From: Candidatus Omnitrophota bacterium
Lineage (GTDB): Bacteria > Omnitrophota > Gorgyraeia > Gygaellales > Profunditerraquicolaceae
Assembly (NCBI GenBank): GCA_028712505.1
Contig: JAQTQC010000001.1
Span: forward strand, 13,635 to 77,634
DNA: 64,000 bases
Direction: 5' to 3'
In this document: piece by piece, positions 48,391 through 63,993 of the stretch
Layout: each line of letters begins with the position of its first letter
Numbering within the stretch: position 1 is the stretch's first letter
The notes under the pieces: model-generated
Told to the model about the DNA's origin: nothing
Databases searched by the model: none
The model's input: the letters and a program-made list of their open reading frames with translations, nothing else
Position numbers and translations under genes: made by a program

Positions 48391-50226
48391 ATGTGTGGGA
48401 TAGTCGGATATATCGGTGAAAGGCCAGCTCAGAAAATTCTTTTGACTGGCCTTAAGCGTTTAGAATACCGCGGATATGATTCCAGCGGCATGGCGGTCAT
48501 TTTGCCTACTAAAGGCACTCTTGCAATAAGAAAGTCCCCCGGAAAAATCAGCTGTCTCGATAAACTGCTTAGGTCTAAGCCGCTCGATGGTTCGGTAGGG
48601 ATTGCGCATACCCGCTGGGCTACCCATGGCGCACCTACTCAAGCCAATGCCCATCCCCATGCTGATTGCGATAATGAAATTGTCCTGGTGCATAATGGGA
48701 TTATTGAAAATTATGAAACCTTGAAGAATCAGTTGATTAAAGAGGGGCATGTATTCCGCAGTCAGACAGATACAGAGGTGATCGTTCATCTTATAGAGAA
48801 GTTTTATAAAGATATCCCCTTAGAGGATGCAGTGCGCAAGGCCTTAAGATTGGTCAGTGGATCTTTCGCTATTGCGGTTATTTCCCGGCGTGAGCCGGAA
48901 AAATTGATTGGCGCCCGTTCCGGAAGCCCTTTAATAGCGGGGATAGGTAAAAACGAAAATTTTCTTGCCTCAGATGCCCCAGCAATTTTAGAATACACCA
49001 AAGATATAATATTCTTGGAGGAGAATGAAATTGCGATTTTGAATAAAGATCGTTTTAAGATAGTCGACCTTAATGGTAAAGAAGTAACCAGGAATCCGGT
49101 GCGGCTCAACTGGGATATTGAACAAGCGCAGAAGCAGGGATATAAACATTTCATGCTTAAAGAAATCAACGAGCAGCCAAAAATCATTGAAAATCTTATT
49201 GGGCTTAGGATCCCAAGGGACGGCAGGGTTATCTTTAAAGAACAATATATCGGGGTTAATAAGTTAAAGAGCATTAAGAATATCTTTGTTGTTGCCTGCG
49301 GTACAGCCTATCACGCCGGCCTAGTAGGGAAATATGTTTTTGAAACGCTTTCCAAGGTTCCTACATATATAGATGTATCGAGCGAATTCCGTTATCGCGA
49401 CCTGCTGATTAATAAAGATACCCTGGTCTTGGCAATCAGTCAATCTGGCGAAACCGCCGATACTTTGGCAGGTGTCAGGCAGGCGCATAAGCTGGGGGCC
49501 TCGGTAATTTCTATATGCAATGTTTTAGGTTCAACCTTAACCCGCGAATCAGACGGAGTAATGTATACTCATGCGGGGCCGGAGATTGGCGTAGCTTCTA
49601 CCAAGGCCTATACTGCACAGCTGGCCGCAATTTATTTATTTGCTTTTTATCTGGCTAGGATCCGCAATACAATCTCTTTGTCCAAGCTGGATAAGCTGAT
49701 TACAGAATTGAAACAAGTCCCTGATAAGCAGGCGGAGATTTTGAAGGGGCAAGATGTTATTGCCCGTATCTCCCGCAGGCATTCTCACCTGGGGTCTTTT
49801 TTGTATCTGGGCAGGAATATGAATTATCCTTCAGCTTTAGAAGGGGCATTAAAGTTAAAAGAAATTTCGTATATTCCGGCGGAGGGTTATGCTGCCGGAG
49901 AGATGAAGCATGGACCAATAGCCTTAATTGACGAGTATCGCGCAGTAGTTTGTCTGGCGCCAGAATCGAAGGTTTACGAAAAGATGATTTCAAATATCCA
50001 GGAGATTCGTTCTCGCCGTGGTAAGATTATCGCCATTGCCACGGAGGGAGATGAAAATATTAAAGAATTAACTGAAGAATTAATCTATATCCCCAAGTGC
50101 GATGAATTGTTTTCTCCTCTTTTGGTTGCCTTGCCGTTACAGCTTTTAGCATATCATATATCAGTTAAGCGTGGTTGTGACGTTGACCAGCCGCGTAACT
50201 TAGCCAAGTCAGTAACTGTGGAATAA
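48391..50226 (+). CDS. glmS: glutamine--fructose-6-phosphate aminotransferase (isomerising)
   Basis: Start placed at 'MCGIVGY' (Cys2 is the Ntn nucleophile). The ORF track begins 13 codons earlier. Two SIS domains and the C-terminal '...VKRGCDVDQPRNLAKSVTVE'. Confidence 0.93.
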   Translation: MCGIVGYIGERPAQKILLTGLKRLEYRGYDSSGMAVILPTKGTLAIRKSPGKISCLDKLLRSKPLDGSVGIAHTRWATHGAPTQANAHPHADCDNEIVLVHNGIIENYETLKNQLIKEGHVFRSQTDTEVIVHLIEKFYKDIPLEDAVRKALRLVSGSFAIAVISRREPEKLIGARSGSPLIAGIGKNENFLASDAPAILEYTKDIIFLEENEIAILNKDRFKIVDLNGKEVTRNPVRLNWDIEQAQKQGYKHFMLKEINEQPKIIENLIGLRIPRDGRVIFKEQYIGVNKLKSIKNIFVVACGTAYHAGLVGKYVFETLSKVPTYIDVSSEFRYRDLLINKDTLVLAISQSGETADTLAGVRQAHKLGASVISICNVLGSTLTRESDGVMYTHAGPEIGVASTKAYTAQLAAIYLFAFYLARIRNTISLSKLDKLITELKQVPDKQAEILKGQDVIARISRRHSHLGSFLYLGRNMNYPSALEGALKLKEISYIPAEGYAAGEMKHGPIALIDEYRAVVCLAPESKVYEKMISNIQEIRSRRGKIIAIATEGDENIKELTEELIYIPKCDELFSPLLVALPLQLLAYHISVKRGCDVDQPRNLAKSVTVE

Positions 50227-50879
50227 TGCTTTATATCGTTGGTACGCCAATTGGCAACTTAAAAGATATTTCTCTTAGGGCGATAGAGGTTTTAAAAGAT
50301 GTAGATTTGATTGCCTGCGAAGATACCCGCCATACAAAAATCCTGCTTGATAATTATCTTATCAAAACACCCACTACAAGTTTTTTCCAACACAATAGGG
50401 TTACAAAAGCGGATTATATCCTTGGTTTATTAAAAGAGGGTAAGGATGTTGCTGTGGTTTCTGATGCCGGAACTCCGGGAATCCTTGATCCGGGATACAA
50501 TTTAATCAATTTGGCAATCAAGAATAATCTTGAAATGACCTTTATTCCCGGTGCAGCAGCTTTTGTCAGTGCGTTGGTGCTTTCCGGTAAGCCAGCCCAT
50601 GAGTTTTACTTTGGGGGGTTTTTGATTAACCGGACCCAGGCGCGTAAGAATCAACTTGAGAAACTAAAGAAATTTAATTGCACTTTAATCTTTTACGAAT
50701 CTTGTCATAGGATATTATCCAGCCTGGAAGACATAAGGGCGGTTTTTGGGGATAAAGAGATTGTGGTGGCCAGGGAATTAACCAAGAAATTTGAAGAAAT
50801 CCTGCGGGGAACGTCAGAGGCTGTCAAAAATAAGCTTGTTAAAATAAAACCCCGCGGTGAATTTGTGATTATTATTTAA
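50226..50879 (+). CDS. rsmI: 16S rRNA (cytidine1402-2'-O)-methyltransferase RsmI-like (tetrapyrrole-methylase fold)
   Basis: 'MLYIVGTPIGNLKDISLRAIEVLKDVDLIACEDTRHT' is the RsmI N-terminal signature. 217 aa is shorter than typical. Confidence 0.75.
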   Translation: MLYIVGTPIGNLKDISLRAIEVLKDVDLIACEDTRHTKILLDNYLIKTPTTSFFQHNRVTKADYILGLLKEGKDVAVVSDAGTPGILDPGYNLINLAIKNNLEMTFIPGAAAFVSALVLSGKPAHEFYFGGFLINRTQARKNQLEKLKKFNCTLIFYESCHRILSSLEDIRAVFGDKEIVVARELTKKFEEILRGTSEAVKNKLVKIKPRGEFVIII

Positions 50880-50923
50880 AAATACAGTAAAGTTTTAAAT
50901 TTGGGGCCTAAAATAAATAATGC

Positions 50924-50952
50924 TTGCAGTAGGACTGTGCAAGTAATATAAT
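50924..50952 (+). promoter_or_regulatory. near-consensus sigma70-type promoter (TTGCAG -17 bp- TATAAT)
   Basis: -35 TTGCAG at 50924-50929, a 17-bp spacer, -10 TATAAT at 50947-50952, then AGGAGG 8 nt before the ATG of the Lys-rich small ORF. Confidence 0.6.
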
Positions 50953-50968
50953 TTATTTAGGAGGAGCC

Positions 50969-51079
50969 ATGAAAATCAAAAAAATAGCTAAGAAGACGAA
51001 GGCAAGAAAAGTAAACAAGACGATTAAAAAGAAGAAAAAACTTTCCCGCTACTGCCGATCAGGCAGGGTCCTGTGGTAA
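50969..51079 (+). CDS. 36-aa Lys-rich small protein (MKIKKIAKKTKARKVNKTIKKKKKLSRYCRSGRVLW)
   Basis: Strong RBS (GGAGGAG) and consensus promoter immediately upstream. 17 of 36 residues are Lys. The C-terminal 'RYCRSGRVLW' contains Tyr, Cys and Trp. Lies 283 nt upstream of a radical-SAM/SPASM gene. Not in the ORF track (<60 aa). Confidence 0.5.
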   Translation: MKIKKIAKKTKARKVNKTIKKKKKLSRYCRSGRVLW

Positions 51080-51362
51080 ACTTCTTTAGTCTGATTTAAA
51101 TACCCATCCTCTTTGTGTTTCACCATCGTTCTGTCCAGCTTTCACTTAAACGGCGAGAGCATTCTCGTATTGTATTCGGAGGTGTGATATTAAAACCGCT
51201 GTTCCCGTTGTCCTCTTTCATAAATTAGGTCGCTATGTCGCTATTTCTACGGTTACCGGAGATTTTTACGATATTTCTCCTGAGGTTTACGATTTATTAA
51301 AAAAGTGGAACGAAGATGCATCTTTTTCTCCTCTCCCGCTTTCCCGGAGAAAAGTTGAGGAT

Positions 51363-52691
51363 TTGGCCAAAGAATTAGAGATTCCCTCGGAGATTAAGAA
51401 GCTTTTTCCCTTTCCTTCCGGGGATGAGCCATTTGACGCTGATAAGAACACTTCCCCCTGTCTAACCGATTTGACCCTTAATTTAACTTCTAGCTGTAAT
51501 CTTCGTTGTGTTTATTGTTGGAACGATCATGGTAAATATTCCAACCGTAAATTTTCAGGTAAGCGAAAAGGCCAATTCAGCGATAATGCTAAAAATGAGC
51601 AGATGTTACCCGAAACTGCTTTAAAAGCGGTGGATGTTTTAGTGGCAGCCCGCGGCAGGGATAAAGATTTGGTGGTTGATTTTTACGGCGGCGAGCCTTT
51701 GATGAATCTTAGGACGCTTAGGGAGACGGTTGATTATTGTCGGAAGAATCAGTCGAAATGGGGAGTAGTTTTTCATTTTCTCCTGGCAACGAATGGGACT
51801 TTTTTAACTCCGGATGTAGCTAAAGAATTAATTGATAAGGGAGTGCAGATTGCGATTAGTATTGATGGCCCCAAGGCGGTACATGATAATAACCGGCCGT
51901 TTATTGATCAAAAGGGGAGTTTTGACGCGATTTTATCCAATCTTAAAAGAATGCCTAAGGAGGTAATGAAAAGATTAGTCGGTCGGACTACGGTGACTCC
52001 CTTTTTCCCCGATATGGTAAAATTGTACGAAAACTTAAGAAAGTTGGGGTTTGAGCGGATTGAGCTTTTTGAGAGTGAAGATGCCTGTCACAGATTTCTT
52101 CCCGGGCAGGAAACAAGTTTTTTTAGCACCGAAGATAGCTATAGGCTTCTGTGTAAAACATATGAAAAACTGGCATTAAGATATATAGAGGATGTTGTCT
52201 CAGGTAATTTAAATTATAGCAAAACATTCTTTAACCGGTTTTTTAAATTAATGCAGAGGTTATATTATAATCATGAAGTTTCGGGTGGATGCCCTGCTGC
52301 GAAAGGGCAAATTGCCGTGGGTATCGATGGTAAAATCTATCCCTGCACTTCATTTTTAGGAGTGCAAGAATTTGAGTTAGGGGATGTAGATACAGGTATC
52401 AATAGCGTTAAATTCCAGGAGTTTATTAATAAGATAAACAAGCGTTTTGACCACTGCCGGAAAGACTGTGGATTATTCAGTCTTTGCCGTTCAACCGGGT
52501 CGTGTTTAAACGTAAATTATTTTTTTAACGGTGATCCTGCAGTCCCCCATAAAAGAAGTTGCGAGCTTTTTGCGGAGAAATTATCTTTGGCTGCGGCAAG
52601 CCTGGCGATACTTTCCGATAAAATCCCTCAGCGGCTTGAGGAGTTGTTTGGGTTTGACCCGATAGGCAGAAGGGGAAATAAATTATATTAA
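51363..52691 (+). CDS. radical SAM protein with C-terminal SPASM domain (peptide/protein-modifying maturase class)
   Basis: 'SSCNLRCVYCW' CxxxCxxC radical-SAM cluster. C-terminal Cys-rich SPASM region ('CPAAKGQIAVGIDGKIYPCTSF...CRKDCGLFSLCRSTGSC'). Apparent TTG start, with no in-frame ATG upstream. Confidence 0.8.
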   Translation: MAKELEIPSEIKKLFPFPSGDEPFDADKNTSPCLTDLTLNLTSSCNLRCVYCWNDHGKYSNRKFSGKRKGQFSDNAKNEQMLPETALKAVDVLVAARGRDKDLVVDFYGGEPLMNLRTLRETVDYCRKNQSKWGVVFHFLLATNGTFLTPDVAKELIDKGVQIAISIDGPKAVHDNNRPFIDQKGSFDAILSNLKRMPKEVMKRLVGRTTVTPFFPDMVKLYENLRKLGFERIELFESEDACHRFLPGQETSFFSTEDSYRLLCKTYEKLALRYIEDVVSGNLNYSKTFFNRFFKLMQRLYYNHEVSGGCPAAKGQIAVGIDGKIYPCTSFLGVQEFELGDVDTGINSVKFQEFINKINKRFDHCRKDCGLFSLCRSTGSCLNVNYFFNGDPAVPHKRSCELFAEKLSLAAASLAILSDKIPQRLEELFGFDPIGRRGNKLY

Positions 52692-52760: not shown

Positions 52761-54320
52761 ATGAAAAAGATTTTATTAATAAGGCCTCCGCGTTTTTTAT
52801 GGCCGTTCATCAACGAATCTGATAATTTTCTTCTCCCCCTGGGATTGCCTTGTCTTGCCGGAGAAATCCGGTCGAAATTGCCTGGTCTGGAAGTTAAAAT
52901 TATTGATTGCCCGCCGCTTAGAATCGGATGGAAGAGCCTTAGTCGGATAATAAAAGAAGAAAATCCGGATATAATCGGGGCCGGAGAAGAGGCCTTATAC
53001 TGCCACGAGGCAATCAAGCTGTTTGAGCTAGCTAAAGAAATAAACCCTTCGATAATTACGATTGCCGGAGGGCATTTTTTTTCTTGGATGGTGGATTATG
53101 CCCTGAATAATGCAGCGATAGATTTTATTGTCAGATTTGAGGGTGAGGAGACGGTCGTGGAGTTGATTCGTGCGCTCCAGGAAAAAGGTGATTTATCCCA
53201 GGTCAAGGGGATTGCTTATAAGTATAAGTCTGAAGTAATCCGTACTCAGTCCAGGCCGTTGATAAAAGATTTGGATGTATTGGCTTTTCCTGCCTTTGAC
53301 CTTATGCCGATGGGAAGGTATTCTCCTTTCGGCTACCTTTGGCCTCAAAGTGTAACCTTGGAGCACTCCCGGGGATGTGTGGATAGATGCAATTTTTGTT
53401 CGCTTTGGACGTTCTGGGGGCAAAAATTGAAAACAGAAATCGAAAAAGGGCAGTTAGATGTGAATCCTTACTATCGGACAAAAAGCGTAGCTAGAACATT
53501 AGAAGAGGTGGATATCGCTTACCAGAAGTATGGCCGAAAATATATTCTATGGGCGGATCCGACATTCAATGTCGATCTTAAATGGACTAATGATTTTTGC
53601 GAAGGATTATTGAAAAAGAATTATAAAAACCTGCATTGGTGGGCTTTTTTAAGGGCAGATTATCTGTTGCGTGACGAGAAGGCCGGGGTTTTGGGAAAAA
53701 TGGTGCGGGCGGGCTTGGTCCATCCTTTGATCGGCGTGGAGCGGGGTTGTACTGAAGATCTCAGGAAGGTGCGCAAATCTGTTTATACCCGAGATTTAAT
53801 CAAAGAGGTATTTTTTATTTTTAAAAAGAAATATCCTCAGGTATTCCGGCAGGGAACATTTGTTACCTGCCTGCCATTTGATACCCGGGAGTCAATGTTG
53901 GATCTGGTTAAATACGCCATCGAAATAGATATTGATTATCCTGCTTTTCATCCGGTGGCTCCGGTTCCGGGAACTTTTCTTTATCAAGAAGCTTTAAAAA
54001 ACGATGCTTTGGAGGTAAAGGATTTTAAAAGATATGATTGGTCTACTCCGATTATGCGTTCGGATAACAACCTGTCACTGGAAGAATTTGCCAGCTTGAA
54101 TATGGAGCTTAATAAGCGGTATGTGTTATACCGTCCACACTGGTTGATCCGGGGTTTATTTTCTCCGCATAAGCATAAAAGGGGGCTTTATTGGTGGTTT
54201 TTGCGCAATACCATTAAGATGCTTCTTCTGGGGATTATGGATACCATTTTAGGAAAGAAAAGATTTGAGGGGATTACTGGGTTTATGCGGCTTAGGAAAC
54301 CACGCTGGTATGATTCCTGA
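52761..54320 (+). CDS. B12-binding-domain radical SAM protein (class B), paralog 1
   Basis: N-terminal cobalamin-binding Rossmann region ('KILLIRPP...PLGLPCLAG') followed by 'SRGCVDRCNFCSLW'. 519 aa. Confidence 0.8.
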   Translation: MKKILLIRPPRFLWPFINESDNFLLPLGLPCLAGEIRSKLPGLEVKIIDCPPLRIGWKSLSRIIKEENPDIIGAGEEALYCHEAIKLFELAKEINPSIITIAGGHFFSWMVDYALNNAAIDFIVRFEGEETVVELIRALQEKGDLSQVKGIAYKYKSEVIRTQSRPLIKDLDVLAFPAFDLMPMGRYSPFGYLWPQSVTLEHSRGCVDRCNFCSLWTFWGQKLKTEIEKGQLDVNPYYRTKSVARTLEEVDIAYQKYGRKYILWADPTFNVDLKWTNDFCEGLLKKNYKNLHWWAFLRADYLLRDEKAGVLGKMVRAGLVHPLIGVERGCTEDLRKVRKSVYTRDLIKEVFFIFKKKYPQVFRQGTFVTCLPFDTRESMLDLVKYAIEIDIDYPAFHPVAPVPGTFLYQEALKNDALEVKDFKRYDWSTPIMRSDNNLSLEEFASLNMELNKRYVLYRPHWLIRGLFSPHKHKRGLYWWFLRNTIKMLLLGIMDTILGKKRFEGITGFMRLRKPRWYDS

Positions 54321-54455: not shown

Positions 54456-55538
54456 GTGATGGTTAAAAAAAATCTTAAAATGTTCTTTATCGCTGTCCTT
54501 TTTCTGATAACTCCTTTTTATTTAATCTTGGCTGCCGAGCAGGCAGGGGTTTCTGATGAAACTGGAGTTTCCGATTCCGCTAAGATAGAGGTAGCTGAGG
54601 AGGTGAAAGTTCCCGAGAAAATCGTTCTTTCTGGCAAGGTTGTTTTTGACGGGTATTACGGAGGAGAGATTACGGTTTCGGCAAACGAAAAAAGTACTTC
54701 GTATGAGGGTAAGAATTATGGTGTGTTAGATTCCACTGTTCTTGATTCCCCGGGGTTCTTTTTTGTTTCCGTTCCGCAAAACAGCGGGAAAGTTTTTCTG
54801 GAGGCCTATATTGCTAAAAATACCCCCAGTGGATTGGAATATCTAGCCTGGGGGAAATATCCTTTGAACCCTTTAACAGTGGGGAACGTTAATCTCGAAG
54901 GTTTGAATATCAAAATGTCCGATAATTCAGTATATCATAAAATGAACGATTATCAGGGGGAGAAGGTAGCGATTAAGGGGAGGGTAACCTTCGATAATTA
55001 TAAAAGTGGTTTGATATCCGTTAACGCCAGTAGCGCCAAGGGAAAGGAGCCGGATATTAATTCGGTTTCTATCGATTCTCCGGGGGAGTATGTTATGGAG
55101 GTTCCGGCTAATACCGGGATAATATATATAACCGCGGTTAACGGTAATCAAGAAACTAGGCAAAGTCAAAAGGCAATCGGCGGGTACGAGAAACCGGTAG
55201 AAGTAGGTACAGCGGATATCGAAGGAGTAGATATAAAAATGTACGAGGATGTTTCGGCAACGATAGATAGTCTATCTACTGTAACCATTAAGGGTAAGAT
55301 AAGCGTGGATAATTTTTCCGGAGAAGTCATACATGTGGGGGTAGGCCGCCTGGATTATGAAAGGCCAAATATTAATTTTACCGACTTATCTTCTCCTGGA
55401 GAGTATGTTTTGAAGGCCCCTAAGAATATCGGCCCAGTCTATGTTACCTCCGAAGTGGGGGCTCAGAGGAGGTCTTACAAGAATAATCCCATTGTAGTCG
55501 GAGATTCGGATCTTCAGGGGATTGATATTGTTTTTTAG
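54456..55538 (+). CDS. secreted protein composed of three tandem ~100-aa repeats
   Basis: Signal peptide 'MFFIAVLFLITPFYLILAAEQ'. Three repeats each begin 'GKVVFDGYYGGEITVSA', 'GRVTFDNYKSGLISVNA', 'GKISVDNFSGEVIHVGV'. Each contains 'DSPGEYV..VP.N.G' and ends '..EG.DIKM'. Confidence 0.6.
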   Translation: MMVKKNLKMFFIAVLFLITPFYLILAAEQAGVSDETGVSDSAKIEVAEEVKVPEKIVLSGKVVFDGYYGGEITVSANEKSTSYEGKNYGVLDSTVLDSPGFFFVSVPQNSGKVFLEAYIAKNTPSGLEYLAWGKYPLNPLTVGNVNLEGLNIKMSDNSVYHKMNDYQGEKVAIKGRVTFDNYKSGLISVNASSAKGKEPDINSVSIDSPGEYVMEVPANTGIIYITAVNGNQETRQSQKAIGGYEKPVEVGTADIEGVDIKMYEDVSATIDSLSTVTIKGKISVDNFSGEVIHVGVGRLDYERPNINFTDLSSPGEYVLKAPKNIGPVYVTSEVGAQRRSYKNNPIVVGDSDLQGIDIVF

Positions 55539-55568: not shown

Positions 55569-57020
55569 ATGAAAAAAAAGTTATATCTTTTGTTAGCCCT
55601 TCTGCTGGTTTTTCTATTTTTTGATTGGTTTGTTTCGGATCAGTCCAGGGCTTTAAAAATAGACAACAATATTCTTTATTCAATTGATGATATCTTCCGT
55701 TTCTGTTATTTAAAAGCCTCTTTTTACCATCCGGTAATCTATCTGAATCCCAATCTTAAGATTTTGTCGATGGCAATCTCCAGTTTATTTTTTATGCTTT
55801 TTTCGGCAAAGATGATTTCTTTGCGGATAATGAGCAGTATTTTTTCGGCAGCGACGATTGCTTTTTTGTATAAAGTCGCTAAGATGGTCAATCCGGAAAA
55901 TAAATTGCCCATCCTTCCGGTTTTGTTCACCTTGTCTTCAAGCGTATACCTTTTAGTGTCGGTTTCTACCCTTGCGGAAAGCATGTTTATTTTTTTTCTT
56001 GTTGTGGCGGCCTACCTATTTTATTCACAACGGTATTTATTGTCGGTAATTACCGTATCATTGCTTCCGGCTATCAGGCAGGAGGGGGTGTTATTTATCG
56101 CCGCATGGCTAATTATTCTGGTGCGAGAGCAAAAATGGCGGTATCTGCCTATTTTGTTTGTTCCTTCTCTGCTTTGGAGCTTGGCCAATGTTTTGTTATT
56201 ACAACATAGCATGGTTTATACAATGTTTTATTTTAAACATCTATCTCCAAACACTCCTACAAACGTTTTAATCCTGCCCTCTCAGTTAAACAAGAATATT
56301 GTAATTCTTTCTTTACCGGTAATAGTGTTGTTTGTCGCAGGTTTATTCCGAGAAAAATACAATAAGGGGCATCTCTTAATATTTTTATGCGTTTTATTCC
56401 ATCTGGGGTTTTTAACCATTTCCAATTCGATAAAATTGTTCAAGACTGGATATTTATCTTACGTAATAAGGTTAATTGCTCCAAGCATTCCTTTTGTTTC
56501 GATATATATGGGGAGCGGTTTTGAATTTCTGGCACAAAGATTTATCAAGGATAGGAGAAGGATGGTGGCGAGCGTGGTTTTGGTCTTTTTTGCTTCGACC
56601 GTACTGATGCTCTTCAGGTTACAGGCGTTTCAGGATAATCCGGTAATTAAGGAGGATTCTGTGAACGAAAAACAGATTATTGCTCTAAAAGAGACCGGGA
56701 TTTGGCTCGACGGTTATATGCAACAGGAAAAAGTAAATAATTTATATGTTTTGGGATCTGCGGCCACGAATAAGTTTGTGCGTCGGATATGGATGGAAGT
56801 GTCGGGAAGGGTAAGGTTTTATACAGTTGTCGAATGGAAGGTTCTATTGGATATGTTTAGTTTTAAGCGCGTCCCCATTATTGAAGAACCGGCGGTTTTT
56901 ATCTGCTTAAACGGCGAAGATTTTCAATACCCGGACAATTTCTATAAGAAACGCATAGGGGCCTTTCCGGAGATACATCTGGATTTTTATCTTTTGGAGC
57001 CCCGGGAAAGGGTTAATTGA
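55569..57020 (+). CDS. polytopic membrane protein, probable GT-C-fold glycosyltransferase
   Basis: 483 aa with ≥10 TM helices, an early periplasmic-loop acidic motif ('YSIDDIF') and a C-terminal soluble domain. Adjacent to a clearer PMT/ArnT-family gene. Confidence 0.35.
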   Translation: MKKKLYLLLALLLVFLFFDWFVSDQSRALKIDNNILYSIDDIFRFCYLKASFYHPVIYLNPNLKILSMAISSLFFMLFSAKMISLRIMSSIFSAATIAFLYKVAKMVNPENKLPILPVLFTLSSSVYLLVSVSTLAESMFIFFLVVAAYLFYSQRYLLSVITVSLLPAIRQEGVLFIAAWLIILVREQKWRYLPILFVPSLLWSLANVLLLQHSMVYTMFYFKHLSPNTPTNVLILPSQLNKNIVILSLPVIVLFVAGLFREKYNKGHLLIFLCVLFHLGFLTISNSIKLFKTGYLSYVIRLIAPSIPFVSIYMGSGFEFLAQRFIKDRRRMVASVVLVFFASTVLMLFRLQAFQDNPVIKEDSVNEKQIIALKETGIWLDGYMQQEKVNNLYVLGSAATNKFVRRIWMEVSGRVRFYTVVEWKVLLDMFSFKRVPIIEEPAVFICLNGEDFQYPDNFYKKRIGAFPEIHLDFYLLEPRERVN

Positions 57021-57021
57021 A

Positions 57022-58566
57022 ATGACTTTGTTTTTTATTGTAGTCACAGGAGTTTTGCTGAGATTGTACCGGTTGGAAGTATTTAGTCTTTGGTTTGATG
57101 AAGCAGATTCCGTGCTTTCGGCAATCCAGCCGCTACAAACATTGGAGATGTTAAAAGCAGGGCGGGTCTTAGTAATGCATAATTTATTTCTTAATTTTTG
57201 GAAGATAATAGGAGTTGATGAATTCAGATTAAGGCTTTCCTCGGTAATTTTCGGGGTTTTGGCAATCATCATTCTTTATCTTTTGGCCAAGCGCGTCTTT
57301 GATAAGAAAACCGCCTTATGGAGCGCTTTCTTATTGGCCATCTCTCCTTTTAACATTTATTATTCGCAAGAGTTGCGTCCTTACGCGATGATGGTTCTGT
57401 TGACAATCTGCACCGTTTATTGTTTTATTAAAGGATGGGAAGAAAAGAGAATACTCTATTGGTCGGGCTATGTTATTTTTGCTGTTTTAAATTTTTATAC
57501 TCATTGGATAGCGGCTTTTTATTTTTTTACCCTTATCGTTTACTCTGTTTTTTGGTGCAGGAGAGATGCCGGCGCGCGAAAAATGTTTTTTATCAGTAAT
57601 ATAATTATTGTAGTATTGTCTGTACCTTGGGTGTGGTCTTTAGTGCGGATATCCAGGCTTGTCATTGATAGGGATTCTTTATTTTCACAAATAAGTATCG
57701 GCTGGATTCCTCCCGTAGATTACACCTCTATTTTATGGACTTTAAAAAATTTTACCGCTGGATATAGCGTAAATCATTTTGCCGCCGTCACGACATTATT
57801 GTTATATGGACTATTTTTCTTCCGAGGGATTTTTTGTTCCCGGGATAAGCAAAAGATATTGTTGCCTCTCCTGTTATTTATTGTGCCGGTTATTTTACTG
57901 TTCGGGATATCCAAATACCGTTCTTGCTACATTGATAGATATTTGATTGCCAGCTGTCCATTTTTTTGTTTGATTGTTGCCTGTGGGTTGAAAGAAACAA
58001 AAAGGATCTTTAGTTTTTTCGCCTTAGTAGCATTTACCGTTTTTTCAGCATGGGCATTGACAATACAGTATAATAATTTTTTAGCCGGAAGCTTTATTGA
58101 GCATCGAGGCGTGCAGTGCAAAAAACAAGAACGCCAGGCGGCGGAGTACATCTTGAATAACCTTGAAGTGGAAGATGGAGTGTTTCATGTTTGCCGAAGT
58201 ACGGTTCTCCCATTTGAATTCTATTTTAAGTATACCGACCGGCTGAAGATGCCCCCGGGTAAAAGAGAGCATCCTCAGCTGCTTGTATTTTTAAAAGAGG
58301 AAAATGACTCCGGTGTGGGTTTAGAATTATGCAGATACTCTTTGGTTACCGGCGACTTGGATGATCGATATGTCTATCGTCCGGTTGATGTCACGGTGGA
58401 GGATTTTGATCGGATTTGGTTGGTTTTTTCTGAATGGGATTTTGTCCTGGCTTCAAAGCCGGGTTCGCTGGAAAATAAAATGCTCGAGGTTCTAAAGAAA
58501 AATTACCGAATAGAGGATTTAAAACAATTCTCCGGAGTCATCGTCTATCTTTTTATAAAAAAATAA
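57022..58566 (+). CDS. GT-C glycosyltransferase of the PMT/ArnT (GT39/GT83-like) family
   Basis: 'LLRLYRLEVFSLWFDEADSV' (DE motif in the first loop), 'LLAISPFNIYYSQELRPYAMMVL', polytopic. 514 aa. Confidence 0.6.
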   Translation: MTLFFIVVTGVLLRLYRLEVFSLWFDEADSVLSAIQPLQTLEMLKAGRVLVMHNLFLNFWKIIGVDEFRLRLSSVIFGVLAIIILYLLAKRVFDKKTALWSAFLLAISPFNIYYSQELRPYAMMVLLTICTVYCFIKGWEEKRILYWSGYVIFAVLNFYTHWIAAFYFFTLIVYSVFWCRRDAGARKMFFISNIIIVVLSVPWVWSLVRISRLVIDRDSLFSQISIGWIPPVDYTSILWTLKNFTAGYSVNHFAAVTTLLLYGLFFFRGIFCSRDKQKILLPLLLFIVPVILLFGISKYRSCYIDRYLIASCPFFCLIVACGLKETKRIFSFFALVAFTVFSAWALTIQYNNFLAGSFIEHRGVQCKKQERQAAEYILNNLEVEDGVFHVCRSTVLPFEFYFKYTDRLKMPPGKREHPQLLVFLKEENDSGVGLELCRYSLVTGDLDDRYVYRPVDVTVEDFDRIWLVFSEWDFVLASKPGSLENKMLEVLKKNYRIEDLKQFSGVIVYLFIKK

Positions 58567-58597: not shown

Positions 58598-59956
58598 ATG
58601 GCGAAAATTCTCTTTTTGGATCCTTTAGGGTATGACGAAAAGTTTTTGCGGCATCGTCACTTGTTGAGGGAATGGAGTGGCACATATATTACCGGAGATA
58701 TTCCTTTTCCCCCGTTAGATCTTATGTATGCTGCTTCCTACCTGCGTAAATACGGCCATTCAGTTGGGATTATTGAAGCTAGTGTTAATCATTGGTCGCA
58801 TAATAAGGTGGCAGGTATGGTTGCTGCGGAGGCTCCTGATTTTGTCGTTATTCCTACTACTTATTACAGTCTGGACTCTGATAGGCTTCTGGCCGGCTAT
58901 ATTAAGAAAGAATTGCCTTCAGTAAAGATAGTTTTTTCCGGGGCTCCGGTGATTTACGAACCGCGCCTGGCGCTTGATAGCGGAGTGGTGGATTTTGTCG
59001 TATTGGGAGAAATGGAACTTCCGGTTTTGAATATCGTAGAAGCCAATTATGCGGAGAACATAGCTTATCGAGACGGGGAGAAAATTATCAAGGGTTGTCG
59101 AAGTCTCTTGAATCTTGACGAGCTGGAGTTGCCGGCAAGGGACTTAATTGATAGCCAGGCCTACAGGTATGTTTTTTTTAACCGGGCAAATCCGGTAACT
59201 ACGATGTCTTTAAGCCGGGGATGCCCGCACGGAAAATGCAATTTTTGCGTTTCTTCGTTTTACTCCTTAAGTCAGATAAGGTTTAGAAGGCTTGATTCGG
59301 TCATAAAGGAAATTGAGGAGATTGTGTATAGATATAAGATTGGAGAGATTTTTTTCCGGGATCAAGCTTTAACCGCTAACCGGGAACTGGTCTGGACTCT
59401 TTGTGAAGAACTGATTTCGAAAAATATTCGTATTCCCTGGAGAGGATCTACGAGAGTTGATTTAGTGGACAAGGAATTGCTTAGCTTGATGCGTCGGGCT
59501 GGATGCTATCAATTGTCTTTTGGTTTTGAAAGCCCTTCTCAGAAGGTGCTTGATCTGGCTAATAAAGGGATTAAGGTGGAGCAGTCCAGGAAGGCAAGTC
59601 ATTGGGCGAAAGAAGCCGGCCTGGAGGTGGTCGGGCTTTTTATTTGCGGACTGCCTGGGGGGGGCGCTGGGGATTCGGTAAACGATTTGTTAAAATTTGC
59701 TCTGGAATTGGAGGTAGATTACGCACAATTTTGCGGTGTTTATTTGTTTCCCGGAACGCCTTATTATGAGCAATTTAGCCAGAATGTTTTAAGCCCTCCT
59801 TCTTTAGATTCGGTAAAAAAAGATACCAGGCGTGCATTCTTAAAATTTTATTTAAGATCCGGTTTTATAAACGGGCAACTAAAAAAGATACATTCGCTGG
59901 AGGACTTCAAGTTTTTAATAACCAGCGGGGTCAATGCCTTTTTATCTTATATGTAA
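58598..59956 (+). CDS. B12-binding-domain radical SAM protein (class B), paralog 2
   Basis: 'MAKILFLDPLGY...' B12-binding N-terminal domain, then 'SRGCPHGKCNFCVSS' (Cx4Cx2C variant). 452 aa. Confidence 0.75.
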   Translation: MAKILFLDPLGYDEKFLRHRHLLREWSGTYITGDIPFPPLDLMYAASYLRKYGHSVGIIEASVNHWSHNKVAGMVAAEAPDFVVIPTTYYSLDSDRLLAGYIKKELPSVKIVFSGAPVIYEPRLALDSGVVDFVVLGEMELPVLNIVEANYAENIAYRDGEKIIKGCRSLLNLDELELPARDLIDSQAYRYVFFNRANPVTTMSLSRGCPHGKCNFCVSSFYSLSQIRFRRLDSVIKEIEEIVYRYKIGEIFFRDQALTANRELVWTLCEELISKNIRIPWRGSTRVDLVDKELLSLMRRAGCYQLSFGFESPSQKVLDLANKGIKVEQSRKASHWAKEAGLEVVGLFICGLPGGGAGDSVNDLLKFALELEVDYAQFCGVYLFPGTPYYEQFSQNVLSPPSLDSVKKDTRRAFLKFYLRSGFINGQLKKIHSLEDFKFLITSGVNAFLSYM

Positions 59957-62508: not shown

Positions 62509-63993
62509 ATGCGCATCCTATTAATCAACCCCAGTTCAGAATTAAATATTGAAGCCAGAAAATACAGCAGGTTTGTTTCCCCTTTGCCTCCTTCGGGGAT
62601 CGCCTATATCGCCGCGGTTTTGGAGGCCGACGGTTTTGAGGTCTTTATCGAGGATCAGTTTGCCAGCCGGATCGGCAATAAACAGCTTTTGGAAAGAGTT
62701 AAATCTATAAATCCTCAAGTCGTTGGCTTTTCCTGCCTTACTACCGCGATGAACAACGTCGGCTTCTTGATTAATGAGATTAAAAAGCAGGATAAGAATG
62801 TCAAAATTGTCCTGGGGAATATTCACCCTACCTTATTTGCTCAGGAAGTTCTTGAGCAGGGATTAGTCGATGTTGCTGTTCGCGGTGAAGGAGAGTTTAG
62901 CATGCTGGAGACGGCTTGCGCCCTGCAAAATGAGGGTGACCTGGGGAAAGTTAAAGGGATAAGCTTTAAGCGTAACGGCCAGGTATTCCATAATCCGGAT
63001 CGAGAACTCGTCCCGGAGTTAAAAGCCCTACCCTATCCTGCCTGGCATCTTTTTGACCTAAGTCTGTATACTAATTTTCCGGTAATCGGCGTCTATAACG
63101 AAATTATTTTGCCGATACAAGCTTCGCGTGGCTGTCCTTACAGGTGTTATTTTTGTTCCCAGGACAAAGTTTATCCCGTATCGCGTTACCGCAAGATAAA
63201 AGATGTAGTGGATGAGATTGAAGTGCTGGCGGATAAATTCCAGGTCAAGCATTTTGGTTTTAACGACGCATATTTCCCTTTTTCGGTGGAACACGGGCTG
63301 GAATTTTGTGATGAGCTAATACACCGGGGTCTGCATAAAAGAATTAAATGGATTACGGAGACTAGAGTGGACAAGGTTAGCTTGGAGCTTTTAAGAAAAA
63401 TGAAAGAGGCGGGATTAAGGTTAATCTTGTATGGTTTCGAGTCGGGGAATCAAGAGATCCTGAATAGCATAAATAAGTCCGCAACCCTTGAACAGGCAAG
63501 GATAGCCGTAGAGTTGACCAAGAAGGCGGGGATTTTTATCTCCGGACTTTTTATCTTGGGCCTGCCGGGAGAGACCGCGCAGACTTGTTTTGATACAATT
63601 CGTTTCGCCAAAGAAATTGATCCTGAGATTGCTAAGTTTAATATTGCTGTTCCTTTTCCCGGTTCAAAATTCTTTGAAGATCAAAGAAGCAAGATCGGAG
63701 GATCGTCCGAATACAGAAAGTTCTCCAGCTGGTATGATTTTTATTCCGCCAAAGGGAACCTTATCTATAGCCCAGATTCTATCTCTAGCGAAGAATTGCG
63801 CAATTTGCAGCGGAAGGCGATGTTTGAGTTTTATTTAAGGCCGACTAAAATCTGGAGGCATCTAACCGGGGGGATATTTCCTCTCCGGGATTTATTATAC
63901 GGGTTTTATGTTTTGATGGATAATTATTCAAGGTTTATCTTTGACCGGTTAACCTGCGGTTTCCGGGGTAGAGCTAAAAAAATGCAAAAATAA
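62509..63993 (+). CDS. B12-binding-domain radical SAM protein (class B), paralog 3
   Basis: 'MRILLINPS...PSGIAYIAAVLEADGF' B12-binding domain, then 'ASRGCPYRCYFCSQ'. 494 aa. Confidence 0.8.
   Translation: MRILLINPSSELNIEARKYSRFVSPLPPSGIAYIAAVLEADGFEVFIEDQFASRIGNKQLLERVKSINPQVVGFSCLTTAMNNVGFLINEIKKQDKNVKIVLGNIHPTLFAQEVLEQGLVDVAVRGEGEFSMLETACALQNEGDLGKVKGISFKRNGQVFHNPDRELVPELKALPYPAWHLFDLSLYTNFPVIGVYNEIILPIQASRGCPYRCYFCSQDKVYPVSRYRKIKDVVDEIEVLADKFQVKHFGFNDAYFPFSVEHGLEFCDELIHRGLHKRIKWITETRVDKVSLELLRKMKEAGLRLILYGFESGNQEILNSINKSATLEQARIAVELTKKAGIFISGLFILGLPGETAQTCFDTIRFAKEIDPEIAKFNIAVPFPGSKFFEDQRSKIGGSSEYRKFSSWYDFYSAKGNLIYSPDSISSEELRNLQRKAMFEFYLRPTKIWRHLTGGIFPLRDLLYGFYVLMDNYSRFIFDRLTCGFRGRAKKMQK

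What the first reader, a model, noticed from the sequence alone, without database searches (positions are those of the whole stretch)
50969..51079. Highly expressed-looking 36-aa Lys-rich ORF ending in RYCRSGRVLW, upstream of a SPASM radical SAM
TTGCAG-17-TATAAT promoter plus AGGAGG RBS is the strongest expression signal I see in the window, and it drives a 36-codon ORF that the six-frame track omits. Two readings are possible. One is a ribosomally synthesised peptide precursor whose Tyr/Cys/Trp/Arg-rich C-terminus is the substrate of the downstream rSAM-SPASM enzyme (compare Lys-Trp and Arg-Tyr crosslinks made by SPASM enzymes). The other is a small basic nucleic-acid-binding or ribosome-associated protein. 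A poly-Lys 'leader' would be atypical for known RiPPs.
Basis: partly seen in the sequence, partly recalled or inferred. Interest (0 to 1): 0.55.

Follow-up and report, generated by a model that had tools for sequence, protein, structure and literature searches.

The report
Conserved peptide substrate of radical-SAM enzyme
The 36-codon ORF is a real, strongly conserved gene for a very basic peptide that is almost always found next to a CteB-like radical-SAM/SPASM enzyme, so it is most likely the precursor of an undescribed SCIFF-like modified peptide of Omnitrophota and a few other uncultured bacteria.

Summary
The ORF at 50969..51079 is real and encodes MKIKKIAKKTKARKVNKTIKKKKKLSRYCRSGRVLW. 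It has the only AGGAGG-N3-9-ATG on the + strand of the window, behind TTGCAG-17-TATAAT.

- **Protein-coding.** In 38 distinct DNA versions the last 12 residues, LSRYCRSGRVLW, never change apart from one Y-to-F. Their codons vary freely at synonymous sites.
- **Linked to the radical-SAM/SPASM gene in both directions.** 47 of 48 informative genome loci found through the enzyme carry the peptide. 50 of 51 metagenome loci found through the peptide motif alone carry the enzyme. In six loci the peptide gene lies convergent and downstream, so it is not a leader ORF.
- **A second type exists.** MIRLLNR..YRAAFCRCGRVLW goes with enzymes only 37-41% identical.
- **The enzyme is CteB-like.** It really spans 51189..52691 with an ATT start. 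It is closest to the SCIFF thioether synthase CteB in sequence (E 3.5e-67) and in fold (TM 0.81). It has an N-terminal peptide-recognition domain and a 3+4 auxiliary-cluster cysteine pattern.
- **Not a described family.** It is below every curated NCBIfam cut-off, and the peptide matches nothing.

Most likely a single-Cys thioether RiPP. The chemistry and the biological role are untested. I rate it a new member of a known kind, of moderate interest.

The parts
50924..50952 (+). Promoter-like element: TTGCAG (-35, 3/6 match), 17-nt spacer, TATAAT (-10, 6/6).
   Evidence: Sequence. Not listed by the consensus scan because the -35 is 3/6. One of four TTGnnn-N16-18-TATAAT sites on the + strand. 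Conserved in close relatives L084, L107, L001 and L092. Near-consensus TTGACA-17-TATAAT sits in front of many homologous peptide genes.
50959..50964 (+). Shine-Dalgarno AGGAGG, 4 nt before the ATG.
   Evidence: GGAGG-type SD is present before nearly all homologous peptide genes.
50969..51079 (+). Precursor peptide gene, 36 aa plus stop (type 1).
   Evidence: Conserved in 47 of 48 informative genome loci and in all 51 metagenome hits. Only 4 clusters at 50% identity among 1.84 billion representatives, all 30-59 aa. No Pfam or NCBIfam match.
50969..51007 (+). Variable Lys-rich N-terminal extension (residues 1-13).
   Evidence: Length and sequence vary between loci. Absent from the 27-aa type-1 forms and from type 2.
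51008..51040 (+). Conserved leader segment K-V-N-K-T-I-K-K-K-K-K (residues 14-24), proposed RRE-binding part. Asn16 lies 13 residues before Cys29.
   Evidence: N is near-invariant. The N-to-C spacing of 13 is the same in type 2 and in CteA (N8 to C21). hhalign places KKAKKINKTT on CteA KHIKILNGST, P = 0.07. RRE binding is inferred.
51041..51076 (+). Invariant core LSRYCRSGRVLW (residues 25-36). The Cys29 codon is at 51053-51055. Trp36 is the C-terminus.
   Evidence: 38 distinct nucleotide versions: 0 amino-acid changes apart from one Y-to-F, and 4-5 synonymous codons at most positions. C, R+4, V, L and the terminal W are invariant across both types.
51080..51188 (+). Intergenic region. It has no strong terminator. 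A weak hairpin lies at 51153-51168 and the SD GGAGGTG at 51178-51184.
   Evidence: no hairpin passed the terminator-like filter in the window. Co-transcription is inferred, not shown.
51189..52691 (+). Radical SAM/SPASM maturase, 500 aa, with an ATT start codon.
   Evidence: Homologues of ~500 aa cover the whole length. At the start position L107 has ATG, L001 and L092 have ATC, and the window and L084 have ATT. Best NCBIfam hit is PapB at 228.7 bits against a cut-off of 340. Best PDB hit is CteB 5WGG, E 3.5e-67. AF2 model pLDDT 84.5. Foldseek top hit CteB, TM 0.81 normalised to the target.
51189..51458 (+). N-terminal RRE-like (peptide-recognition) domain, residues ~1-90.
   Evidence: The model has three strands (7-12, 15-20, 26-29) and then helices. 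The region aligns to CteB residues 4-100, which are its RRE (PMC8326336). No Pfam PqqD hit.
51495..51518 (+). CX3CX2C radical-SAM cluster motif (C103, C107, C110).
   Evidence: Invariant in 27 homologues. PF04055.
52290..52562 (+). SPASM domain with seven invariant Cys: C368, C386, C439 and C423, C427, C433, C458.
   Evidence: for invariance. for the alignment to CteB. The CteB ligand lists are AC1 = C344, C362, C413 (three Cys, open site) and AC2 = C400, C403, C409, C432, from PMC10177961.
52761..54320 (+). B12-binding radical SAM gene. Possible accessory enzyme, more likely a syntenic neighbour.
   Evidence: Pfam PF02310 plus PF04055. BchE-like, 188 bits against a cut-off of 481. An ortholog of 72-92% identity lies directly downstream in 9 genome and 8 metagenome loci of both peptide types. 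It is unlinked in most loci, and 3 of 4 orthologs sampled from the B12 side had no cassette nearby.

Best explanation
The ORF encodes the precursor of a ribosomally made, post-translationally modified peptide. The adjacent 500-aa RRE-radical SAM-SPASM enzyme is its dedicated maturase. The two genes form a self-contained cassette, like the SCIFF cassettes of Clostridia.

Proposed mechanism. Step 1 is read from sequence; steps 2-4 are inferred by homology to CteB and PapB.
1. A strong promoter and Shine-Dalgarno sequence give abundant peptide. The maturase is made at a lower level: through a non-canonical AUU/AUC or UUG start in the window's clade, and through a terminator-like hairpin after the peptide gene in other clades.
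2. The conserved leader segment, [K/R]-[V/I/L]-N-[K/R], docks as a beta-strand on the enzyme's N-terminal RRE domain.
3. The single invariant Cys, usually 13 residues after that Asn as with Cys21 of CteA, binds the open iron site of auxiliary cluster I.
4. The 5'-deoxyadenosyl radical abstracts a hydrogen from one of the invariant downstream residues. Candidates are Arg+4 (i to i+4, as in PapB's CX3D), Val+5 (i to i+5, as in Cys32-Thr37 of CteA and Tte1186a) and the terminal Trp+7. A thioether ring forms, with a mass change of -2 Da.

The cassette has no conserved protease or exporter, and the core is invariant across phyla. The product therefore more likely serves a conserved cellular or signalling role than as a variable antibiotic.
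For: **Gene reality and selection**
- Synonymous-only variation over the last 12 codons in 38 distinct sequences.
- Own SD, and a promoter-like element in many lineages.

**Linkage**
- From the enzyme side, 47 of 48 informative loci carry the peptide.
- From the peptide side, 50 of 51 loci carry the enzyme, and the remaining one ends 137 bp from the contig end.
- Linkage survives rearrangement to a convergent position in L017, L018, L019, L022, L037 and L101.
- A second peptide type co-varies with a 37-41% identical enzyme clade. Both types occur in one locus, L007.
- No other gene is conserved in the neighbourhood.

**Enzyme**
- The best NCBIfam hits are all RiPP or thioether maturases: PapB, nif11, SCIFF, QhpD, CcpM.
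- CteB is the top solved structure by sequence (E 3.5e-67, residues 5-468 including the RRE) and by fold (E 1.3e-28, TM 0.81 normalised to the target).
- The ten invariant Cys are 3 (radical-SAM cluster) + 3 + 4, the same scheme as CteB, PapB and Tte1186.
- The open auxiliary-cluster-I site binds the substrate Cys or Sec in PapB and Tte1186 (PMC10177961). CteA Cys21 contacts that iron while the leader sits on the RRE (PMC8326336).

**Leader**
- The N-to-C spacing of 13 is shared with CteA.
Against: - No modification has been observed. The chemistry rests entirely on homology.
- The enzyme scores below every curated family cut-off, so it could catalyse something else.
- Known ranthipeptide acceptors (Asp, Glu, Thr, Asn) carry a functional group next to the linked carbon (PMC8326336). 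The invariant core here offers Arg, Val, Leu and Trp instead.
- The leader similarity to CteA is not significant on its own (P = 0.07). The Asn is absent from the one other SCIFF precursor seen (L058). The N-to-C spacing is 15-16 in a few type-1 peptides.
- L024 has the enzyme but no peptide within 6 kb.
- Expression levels, co-transcription and use of the ATT start are all inferred.
Confidence: 0.65

Rival explanations
1. The enzyme acts like an anaerobic sulfatase-maturating enzyme. It oxidises the invariant Cys to C-alpha-formylglycine and produces an aldehyde-bearing peptide rather than a crosslink.
For: The core C-R-[S/C]-[G/A/S]-R resembles the sulfatase motif C/S-x-P/A-x-R (established knowledge). 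anSME is the second-best structural match (E 1e-18) and is hit by sequence (E 4.5e-19; TIGR03942 at 77.7 bits).
Against: CteB and PapB score much higher (230 against 72 bits; 229 against 78 bits). The enzyme has an N-terminal RRE, which the anSME alignment does not cover (anSME aligns only from query position 102). Only seven SPASM-region Cys are invariant, giving the 3+4 pattern with an open site as in CteB. Both anSME auxiliary clusters are fully Cys-ligated (recalled knowledge, not checked here).
Confidence: 0.1
2. The chemistry centres on the invariant C-terminal Trp rather than on sulfur. One option is a carbon-carbon or carbon-nitrogen crosslink, streptide-like, for example Arg or Lys to Trp. 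The other is MftC-like oxidative decarboxylation and cyclisation of the C-terminal residue, giving a small cofactor-like product.
For: R-V-L-W and the C-terminal position of Trp are invariant in both types. An invariant core with a variable N-terminus is the pattern of peptide-derived cofactors such as PQQ and mycofactocin (established knowledge). SPASM enzymes do catalyse such reactions (PMC10114670).
Against: SuiB matches only weakly and only in the SPASM part (E 2.7e-5; TM about 0.5). No MftC or PqqE model is among the top 25 NCBIfam hits. No protease, PqqB/C-like or MftD/E-like genes are linked. The invariant Cys would have no explanation.
Confidence: 0.15
3. The ORF encodes a stand-alone small basic ribosome- or nucleic-acid-binding protein that is not a substrate of the neighbouring enzyme.
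For: Net charge is about +17 over 36 residues and the translation signals are very strong. A weak H1-like hit, E = 0.32, occurred for one family member. Small polycationic ribosomal proteins exist, such as bS22 and bL37 (recalled knowledge).
Against: Linkage to the rSAM/SPASM gene is essentially obligate in both directions and through rearrangements. Peptide type and enzyme clade co-vary. The enzyme carries a peptide-recognition domain. The Lys-rich part is the least conserved part.
Confidence: 0.05
4. The ORF is a regulatory upstream ORF or leader peptide, or merely an untranslated leader, controlling expression of the radical SAM gene.
For: It lies directly upstream of the enzyme gene in most loci, at distances of 6-326 nt. 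Hairpins follow it in some lineages.
Against: In six loci it is convergent and downstream of the enzyme gene. Selection acts on the amino-acid sequence with saturated synonymous change. It has its own SD, and in many loci a promoter-like element. No Rfam family matches the region.
Confidence: 0.02

Closest known systems
SCIFF cassettes (six-Cys-in-forty-five precursor such as CteA or Tte1186a, plus the CteB/Tte1186 maturase; NCBIfam TIGR03973/TIGR03974), ranthipeptide class
   Same: - Two-gene cassette with no conserved protease or exporter.
- The maturase has the same RRE-radical SAM-SPASM architecture. CteB is the best solved match by sequence and by fold, with the same 3+4 auxiliary-cluster Cys pattern.
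- A short basic leader with an [I/L/V]-N motif 13 residues before a Cys.
- The core is conserved across a whole clade, which for SCIFF has been taken as arguing against an antibiotic role (PMC8326336).
   Different: - One Cys (type 1) or two (type 2) instead of six. No Thr, Asp or Glu acceptor.
- An invariant C-terminal RVLW, and a far more cationic peptide.
- The maturase scores 184.8 bits against the TIGR03974 cut-off of 425.
- The peptide does not match the SCIFF model even at E <= 10.
- Found in Omnitrophota, Elusimicrobiota and other uncultured lineages rather than Clostridia.
PapB/PapA (freyrasin) ranthipeptide system, NF047865
   Same: The best-scoring curated family for the enzyme (228.7 bits). 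In PapB the substrate Cys binds an auxiliary-cluster iron before thioether formation (PMC10177961).
   Different: The score is below the cut-off of 340. PapA has six CX3D motifs and the acceptor is Asp C-beta. Here there is a single CX3R and no acidic residue.
Anaerobic sulfatase-maturating enzyme (anSME, TIGR03942; PDB 4K36-4K39)
   Same: SPASM fold and second-best structural match. The substrate motif C-x-[P/A]-x-R resembles C-R-[S/C]-x-R.
   Different: 77.7 bits against a cut-off of 349. The anSME alignment does not cover the N-terminal RRE region. anSME acts on large sulfatase proteins and is not paired with a dedicated small peptide gene.
   Same: RRE-rSAM-SPASM architecture. A Trp near the C-terminus of a short basic precursor.
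   Different: SuiB is a weak match, partial by sequence (E 2.7e-5, SPASM region only) and poor by fold (TM about 0.5). The KxxxW motif is absent. The invariant Cys has no counterpart.

Membership tests
RiPP precursor plus RRE-radical SAM-SPASM maturase pair (generic kind) | Radical SAM CX3CX2C motif and domain | tested here: met
   C103, C107 and C110 are invariant in 27 homologues. PF04055 scores 57.9 bits against a cut-off of 29.5.
RiPP precursor plus RRE-radical SAM-SPASM maturase pair (generic kind) | C-terminal SPASM domain with Cys ligands for two auxiliary clusters | tested here: met
   PF13186 scores 21.6 bits against a cut-off of 21.5, so marginal. Seven invariant Cys align to the CteB AC1 and AC2 ligands.
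RiPP precursor plus RRE-radical SAM-SPASM maturase pair (generic kind) | Peptide-recognition (RRE) domain | tested here: met
   Residues 5-100 align to the CteB N-terminal RRE. The model shows three strands followed by helices. The full-length fold match to CteB has TM 0.81 normalised to the target. No Pfam PqqD hit.
RiPP precursor plus RRE-radical SAM-SPASM maturase pair (generic kind) | Small ORF genetically coupled to the enzyme and under protein-level selection | tested here: met
   47 of 48 loci from the enzyme side and 50 of 51 from the peptide side. Synonymous-only variation in the core.
RiPP precursor plus RRE-radical SAM-SPASM maturase pair (generic kind) | The peptide is actually modified by the enzyme | not testable with these tools
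   Needs co-expression and mass spectrometry.
SCIFF (TIGR03973 precursor, TIGR03974 maturase) | Maturase reaches the curated TIGR03974 score | tested here: not met
   184.8 bits against a cut-off of 425.
SCIFF (TIGR03973 precursor, TIGR03974 maturase) | Precursor of about 45 aa with six Cys in a conserved GGCGECQTSCQSACKTSC-type core | tested here: not met
   One or two Cys. No NCBIfam SCIFF hit for any of 23 peptides at E <= 10. A genuine SCIFF precursor was seen for comparison in L058.
PapB-type ranthipeptide maturase (NF047865) | Curated score and CX3D/E motifs in the substrate | tested here: not met
   228.7 bits against a cut-off of 340. There is no Asp or Glu in the conserved 23 residues.
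Ranthipeptide or sactipeptide class (thioether RiPPs) | Cys sulfur linked to the alpha, beta or gamma carbon of an acceptor residue | not testable with these tools
   Only the prerequisites are met: an invariant donor Cys and a three-Cys AC1 with an open site as in CteB and PapB.
Anaerobic sulfatase-maturating enzyme (TIGR03942) | Curated score, and a substrate motif C/S-x-P/A-x-R within a sulfatase | tested here: not met
   77.7 bits against a cut-off of 349. The substrate candidate is a 26-53 aa peptide with C-R-[S/C]-x-R, which is only a resemblance.
Streptide-type (KxxxW, StrB/SuiB) | KxxxW motif and close similarity to SuiB/StrB | tested here: not met
   The core is R-V-L-W with Arg at -3. 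SuiB gives E 2.7e-5 over the SPASM region only.

The most novel reading that the evidence does not exclude
The cassette does not make a secreted natural product. It makes a housekeeping, intracellular, cross-linked polycationic micro-protein or peptide-derived factor of Omnitrophota and neighbouring uncultured lineages. Possible roles are a ribosome- or nucleic-acid-associated peptide, a redox or metal factor, or an internal signal. Its 12-residue C-terminus is frozen because it fits a conserved cellular partner. Maturase dosage is set by an unusual device, AUU/AUC initiation codons (no canonical start in 26 distinct loci), which other clades replace with a hairpin after the peptide gene.
Probability: 0.3. 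Interest if true: 0.7.

Novelty: new member of a known kind. Interest (0 to 1): 0.5.

Why it matters
The finding adds an undescribed precursor-maturase family to the radical-SAM RiPPs.
- It has a minimal 26-36 aa, single-Cys substrate and an invariant core. That makes it a clean system for asking how CteB-like enzymes choose their acceptor residue.
- Like SCIFF, its invariance across phyla and its lack of export genes point to a physiological role rather than an antibiotic one. That question is still open for the whole class.
- It gives a concrete, easily synthesised target from Omnitrophota, a phylum with almost no experimentally characterised biochemistry.
- The non-canonical start codons of the maturase are a testable example of stoichiometry control within a RiPP operon.

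Tried and rejected
- **Family libraries.** The peptide and 22 relatives give no Pfam or NCBIfam family, even at E <= 10.
- **Direct peptide search.** I redid it with an alignment and found only 26 unnamed 'hypothetical' small proteins.
- **Profile search of 1.84 billion representatives.** Only 4 clusters, and no larger protein family contains the motif.
- **PDB search with the peptide profile.** Only a chance hit.
- **Literature.** Searches for the motif GRVLW and for Omnitrophota with ranthipeptide or RiPP found nothing specific. The CteB structure paper could not be fetched by DOI, so I used two reviews and a JACS paper instead.
- **Rfam.** No RNA family in 50000-52000.
- **B12-radical SAM gene as an obligate third component.** Rejected as obligate. 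It is adjacent in only about 17% of loci, and 3 of 4 orthologs sampled from its own side lack the cassette.
- **Conserved terminator between the two genes in the window's clade.** None found.
- **Inverted repeat in the promoter spacer as an operator.** Not conserved in L084 or L107.
- **bL36-like ribosomal protein** (GRV motif, recalled from memory). Dropped, because there is one Cys, no zinc-ribbon pattern and no family hit.
- **Co-folding of peptide and enzyme.** Not attempted.
Full report
**Observation.** AGGAGG lies 4 nt before the ATG. TATAAT (50947-50952) follows TTGCAG (50924-50929) after 17 nt. The -35 matches the consensus at only 3 of 6 positions, so the consensus scan did not list the site. 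Even so, it is the only AGGAGG-N3-9-ATG on the + strand of the 64-kb window, and the only one on either strand with a perfect -10 upstream. No Rfam family covers the region.

**The downstream gene is longer than the ORF list shows.** The ORF listing starts it at a TTG at 51363. Database homologues are about 500 aa long and cover 51189-52691 at 100%. Between the in-frame stop at 51147 and the conserved N-terminus there is no ATG, GTG or TTG in frame. An alignment with close relatives shows GGAGGTG followed, at the same position, by ATT (window, L084), ATC (L001, L092) or ATG (L107). I therefore take ATT at 51189 as the start codon.

**Is the small ORF a gene?** I collected 80 genome loci through an alignment of the enzyme.
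- All of the 48 informative loci whose enzyme is at least 36% identical carry a small ORF ending in ...C-x-x-x-R-V-L-W-stop next to the enzyme gene, except L024. L047 and L049 are cut at the contig end and were not counted.
- Among 38 distinct type-1 nucleotide sequences, the last 12 residues LSRYCRSGRVLW show a single amino-acid change (Y to F). Each Leu, Ser, Arg, Gly and Val position uses 4-5 synonymous codons.
- That is strong purifying selection on a protein.

**Linkage holds in the other direction too.** A back-translated DNA pattern for YCRSGRVLW-stop found 51 metagenome stretches. Fifty have the rSAM/SPASM gene adjacent. In the remaining one the peptide gene is 137 bp from the contig end. 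In L017, L018, L019, L022, L037 and L101 the peptide gene lies downstream of the enzyme gene on the opposite strand. It is therefore an independent gene whose linkage survives rearrangement, not an upstream regulatory ORF. Clustering of all neighbouring ORFs found no other universally conserved gene, and in particular no protease or transporter.

**Anatomy of the peptide family.** There are two types.
- Type 1 has a variable Lys-rich extension followed by K-[V/I/L]-N-K-x-x-K-x-K-K-K-L-S-R-Y-C-R-S-G-R-V-L-W. Lengths run from 27 to 53 aa.
- Type 2 is M-[I/V]-R-L-L-N-R-...-Y-R-A-A-F-C-R-C-G-R-V-L-W, 26-29 aa. It goes with enzymes only 37-41% identical to the window's.
- The types align without gaps. 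Invariant features are the Cys, Arg+4, Val+5, Leu+6 and the C-terminal Trp+7. Near-invariant features are an aromatic residue at -1, Arg+1 and an Asn 13 residues before the Cys (15-16 in a few peptides).
- Both types occur in one locus (L007).
- Hosts are mostly MAGs labelled Omnitrophota. Others are labelled Elusimicrobiota (L030-L032, L034), Myxococcales (L050) or Patescibacteria (L132).
- A profile search of 1.84 billion representative proteins found only four clusters, all 30-59 aa. A word-indexed search found 26 unnamed small proteins. No Pfam or NCBIfam model matches.

**The enzyme.**
- Pfam finds Radical_SAM, Fer4_12 and SPASM domains.
- The best NCBIfam hits are all peptide maturases of the thioether type: PapB 228.7 bits, nif11 rSAM 192.7, SCIFF maturase 184.8, QhpD 180.1 and CcpM 170.1. 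Every one is far below its curated cut-off.
- Against solved structures, the family profile matches CteB (5WGG) at E 3.5e-67 over residues 5-468, including CteB's N-terminal domain. anSME follows at E 4.5e-19.
- An AlphaFold2 model (pLDDT 84.5, pTM 0.86) shows an N-terminal unit of three strands plus helices. Its best Foldseek match is CteB (E 1.3e-28, TM 0.81 normalised to the target), then anSME.
- Ten Cys are invariant in 27 homologues. C103, C107 and C110 form the radical-SAM cluster motif. C368, C386 and C439 align with CteB C344, C362 and C413. C423, C427, C433 and C458 align with CteB C400, C403, C409 and C432.
- According to PMC10177961, the first of those two sets is auxiliary cluster 1, held by only three Cys. 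Its open iron site binds the substrate Cys or Sec in PapB and Tte1186.
- According to PMC8326336, in the CteB-CteA(1-21) structure the leader forms a beta-strand on the RRE (alpha-3/beta-3 interface), and Cys21 contacts the free iron of that cluster.

**A link to the SCIFF leader.** The deposited CteA fragment is MKHIKILNGSTLKDSLKKGGC. Its I-K-I-L-N resembles type 2's I-R-L-L-N and type 1's K-K-[I/V]-N. Asn8 to Cys21 is 13 residues, the same as Asn16 to Cys29 in the window peptide and Asn6 to Cys19 in type 2. hhalign puts the two leaders in that register, but only at P = 0.07. The Asn is absent from the one other SCIFF precursor seen (L058). I treat this as a supporting lead, not as proof.

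**Mechanism proposed.** The peptide is an abundant precursor. Its leader docks on the fused RRE. Its single Cys ligates the open iron of auxiliary cluster 1. The 5'-deoxyadenosyl radical abstracts a hydrogen from an invariant downstream residue, and a thioether ring closes.
- Candidate acceptors are Arg+4 (an i to i+4 ring as in PapB's CX3D), Val+5 (i to i+5 as in Cys32-Thr37 of CteA and Tte1186a; Val is isosteric with Thr) and Trp+7.
- What is shown: the gene, the selection, the linkage, and the enzyme's homology and cluster pattern.
- What is inferred: binding, chemistry and the acceptor.
- Rival chemistries are formylglycine formation (the core C-R-S-G-R resembles the sulfatase C-x-P/A-x-R motif, and anSME is the second-best fold match) and Trp-centred crosslinking or MftC-like C-terminal chemistry. 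The much stronger CteB/PapB similarity, the RRE and the 3+4 Cys pattern make them less likely, but they are not excluded.

**Expression design.**
- Strong SD sequences precede almost all peptide genes, and near-consensus TTGACA-17-TATAAT promoters precede many of them.
- For the maturase in the window's clade, 26 distinct loci have no canonical in-frame start. They have ATT or ATC codons after an SD, often ATT-ATT-ATT. Eight loci use TTG.
- In lineages where the maturase starts with ATG, a strong terminator-like hairpin often follows the peptide gene. Examples are L030 at -29 kcal/mol, L040 at -24 kcal/mol and L132. Six of 20 ATG loci have a hairpin of -10 kcal/mol or stronger, against 1 of 41 others. 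These counts are not phylogenetically independent.
- Both devices would keep the enzyme scarce relative to its substrate. This is an inference.

**The B12-binding radical SAM gene (52761-54320).**
- An ortholog of 72-92% identity lies directly downstream of the cassette in 9 genome and 8 metagenome loci, with both peptide types. In L132 it even overlaps the 3' end of the maturase gene.
- It is absent within 6 kb in most loci. In two MAGs it lies elsewhere on the same contig (contig lengths shared).
- From the B12 side, only 1 of 4 sampled orthologs has the cassette upstream. Their usual neighbours are PMT_2 glycosyltransferases, U32 peptidases and further B12-rSAM genes.
- I regard it as a frequent syntenic neighbour, at most an optional tailoring enzyme.

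**Comparison and novelty.** The system works like a SCIFF or ranthipeptide cassette, but it fails the membership tests of SCIFF, PapB and anSME on both scores and substrate motifs. No curated model or paper that I could search describes the peptide. It is a new family within a well-known kind. Its interest lies in three things: the extreme conservation of a tiny single-Cys core across phyla, its polycationic nature, and its occurrence in almost unstudied bacteria. The biological role is unknown.

Noticed in passing
window 51178-51191, and loci L001-L131: The maturase gene has no canonical start codon. ATT at 51189 follows GGAGGTG. The same position is ATG in L107 and ATC in L001 and L092. 26 distinct loci of this clade lack any in-frame ATG, GTG or TTG and begin with ATT or ATC, often as ATT-ATT-ATT; 8 use TTG. 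Gene callers and the ORF listing therefore truncate or mis-start the gene.
   Followed up: partly
L030 ~5945-5980; L040, L041, L007 (second cassette), L013, L032, L034; L132 ~2830-2865: In Elusimicrobiota-labelled and type-2 loci, where the maturase starts with ATG, a strong GC-rich hairpin plus T-run (-11 to -29 kcal/mol) sits between the peptide gene and the maturase gene. This suggests attenuation. It is absent in the window's clade.
   Followed up: partly
window 52761-54320, 58598-59956, 62509-63993: The window holds three paralogous B12-binding radical SAM genes, interspersed with PMT_2-type membrane glycosyltransferase-like genes (55569-57020, 57022-58566). The same mix, with U32 peptidases added, surrounds orthologs of the first gene elsewhere (L134-L137). 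It looks like a conserved Omnitrophota envelope or lipid cluster of unknown function.
   Followed up: partly
window 50923-50943: An inverted repeat, CTTGCA-N9-TGCAAG, overlaps the -35 and the spacer of the peptide promoter. The second arm is mutated in L084 and absent in L107, so it is probably chance.
   Followed up: yes
L007 (peptides ending at 387 and 5296); L010 and L033 (same MAG); L042 and L046 (same MAG): Some genomes carry two cassettes. L007 has one of each type about 5 kb apart. Two MAGs have two cassettes of the same type on different contigs.
   Followed up: no
L024 (CAYUET010000007.1): A 58%-identical maturase with an ATG start has no recognisable peptide gene within 6 kb on either side. 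It is the only such exception.
   Followed up: partly
window 54456-55538: A 360-aa protein with an N-terminal hydrophobic segment and about three internal repeats (for example GKVVFDGYYGGEITVSA, GRVTFDNYKSGLISVNA, GKISVDNFSGEVIHVGV). It has no Pfam or NCBIfam hit, and homologues appear in only 2 of 50 related loci.
   Followed up: no
window 50226-50879: The RsmI (16S rRNA C1402 2'-O-methyltransferase) gene just upstream is 217 aa and matches only positions 1-219 of the 275-position TIGR00096 profile. It seems to lack the usual C-terminal part. Its stop lies about 45 nt before the peptide promoter.
   Followed up: no
L063-L080: The more distant rSAM/SPASM homologues (26-29% identical), from MAGs labelled Desulfobacterales/Desulfobacteraceae, Geobacteraceae, Nitrospirae/Nitrospirota, Thermodesulfobacteriota and delta proteobacteria, are preceded by a different small-ORF family. 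Its members have an acidic leader (..I[VI][IV]LD.G..) and a CC motif near the C-terminus. It is probably a known geopeptide-like family.
   Followed up: no
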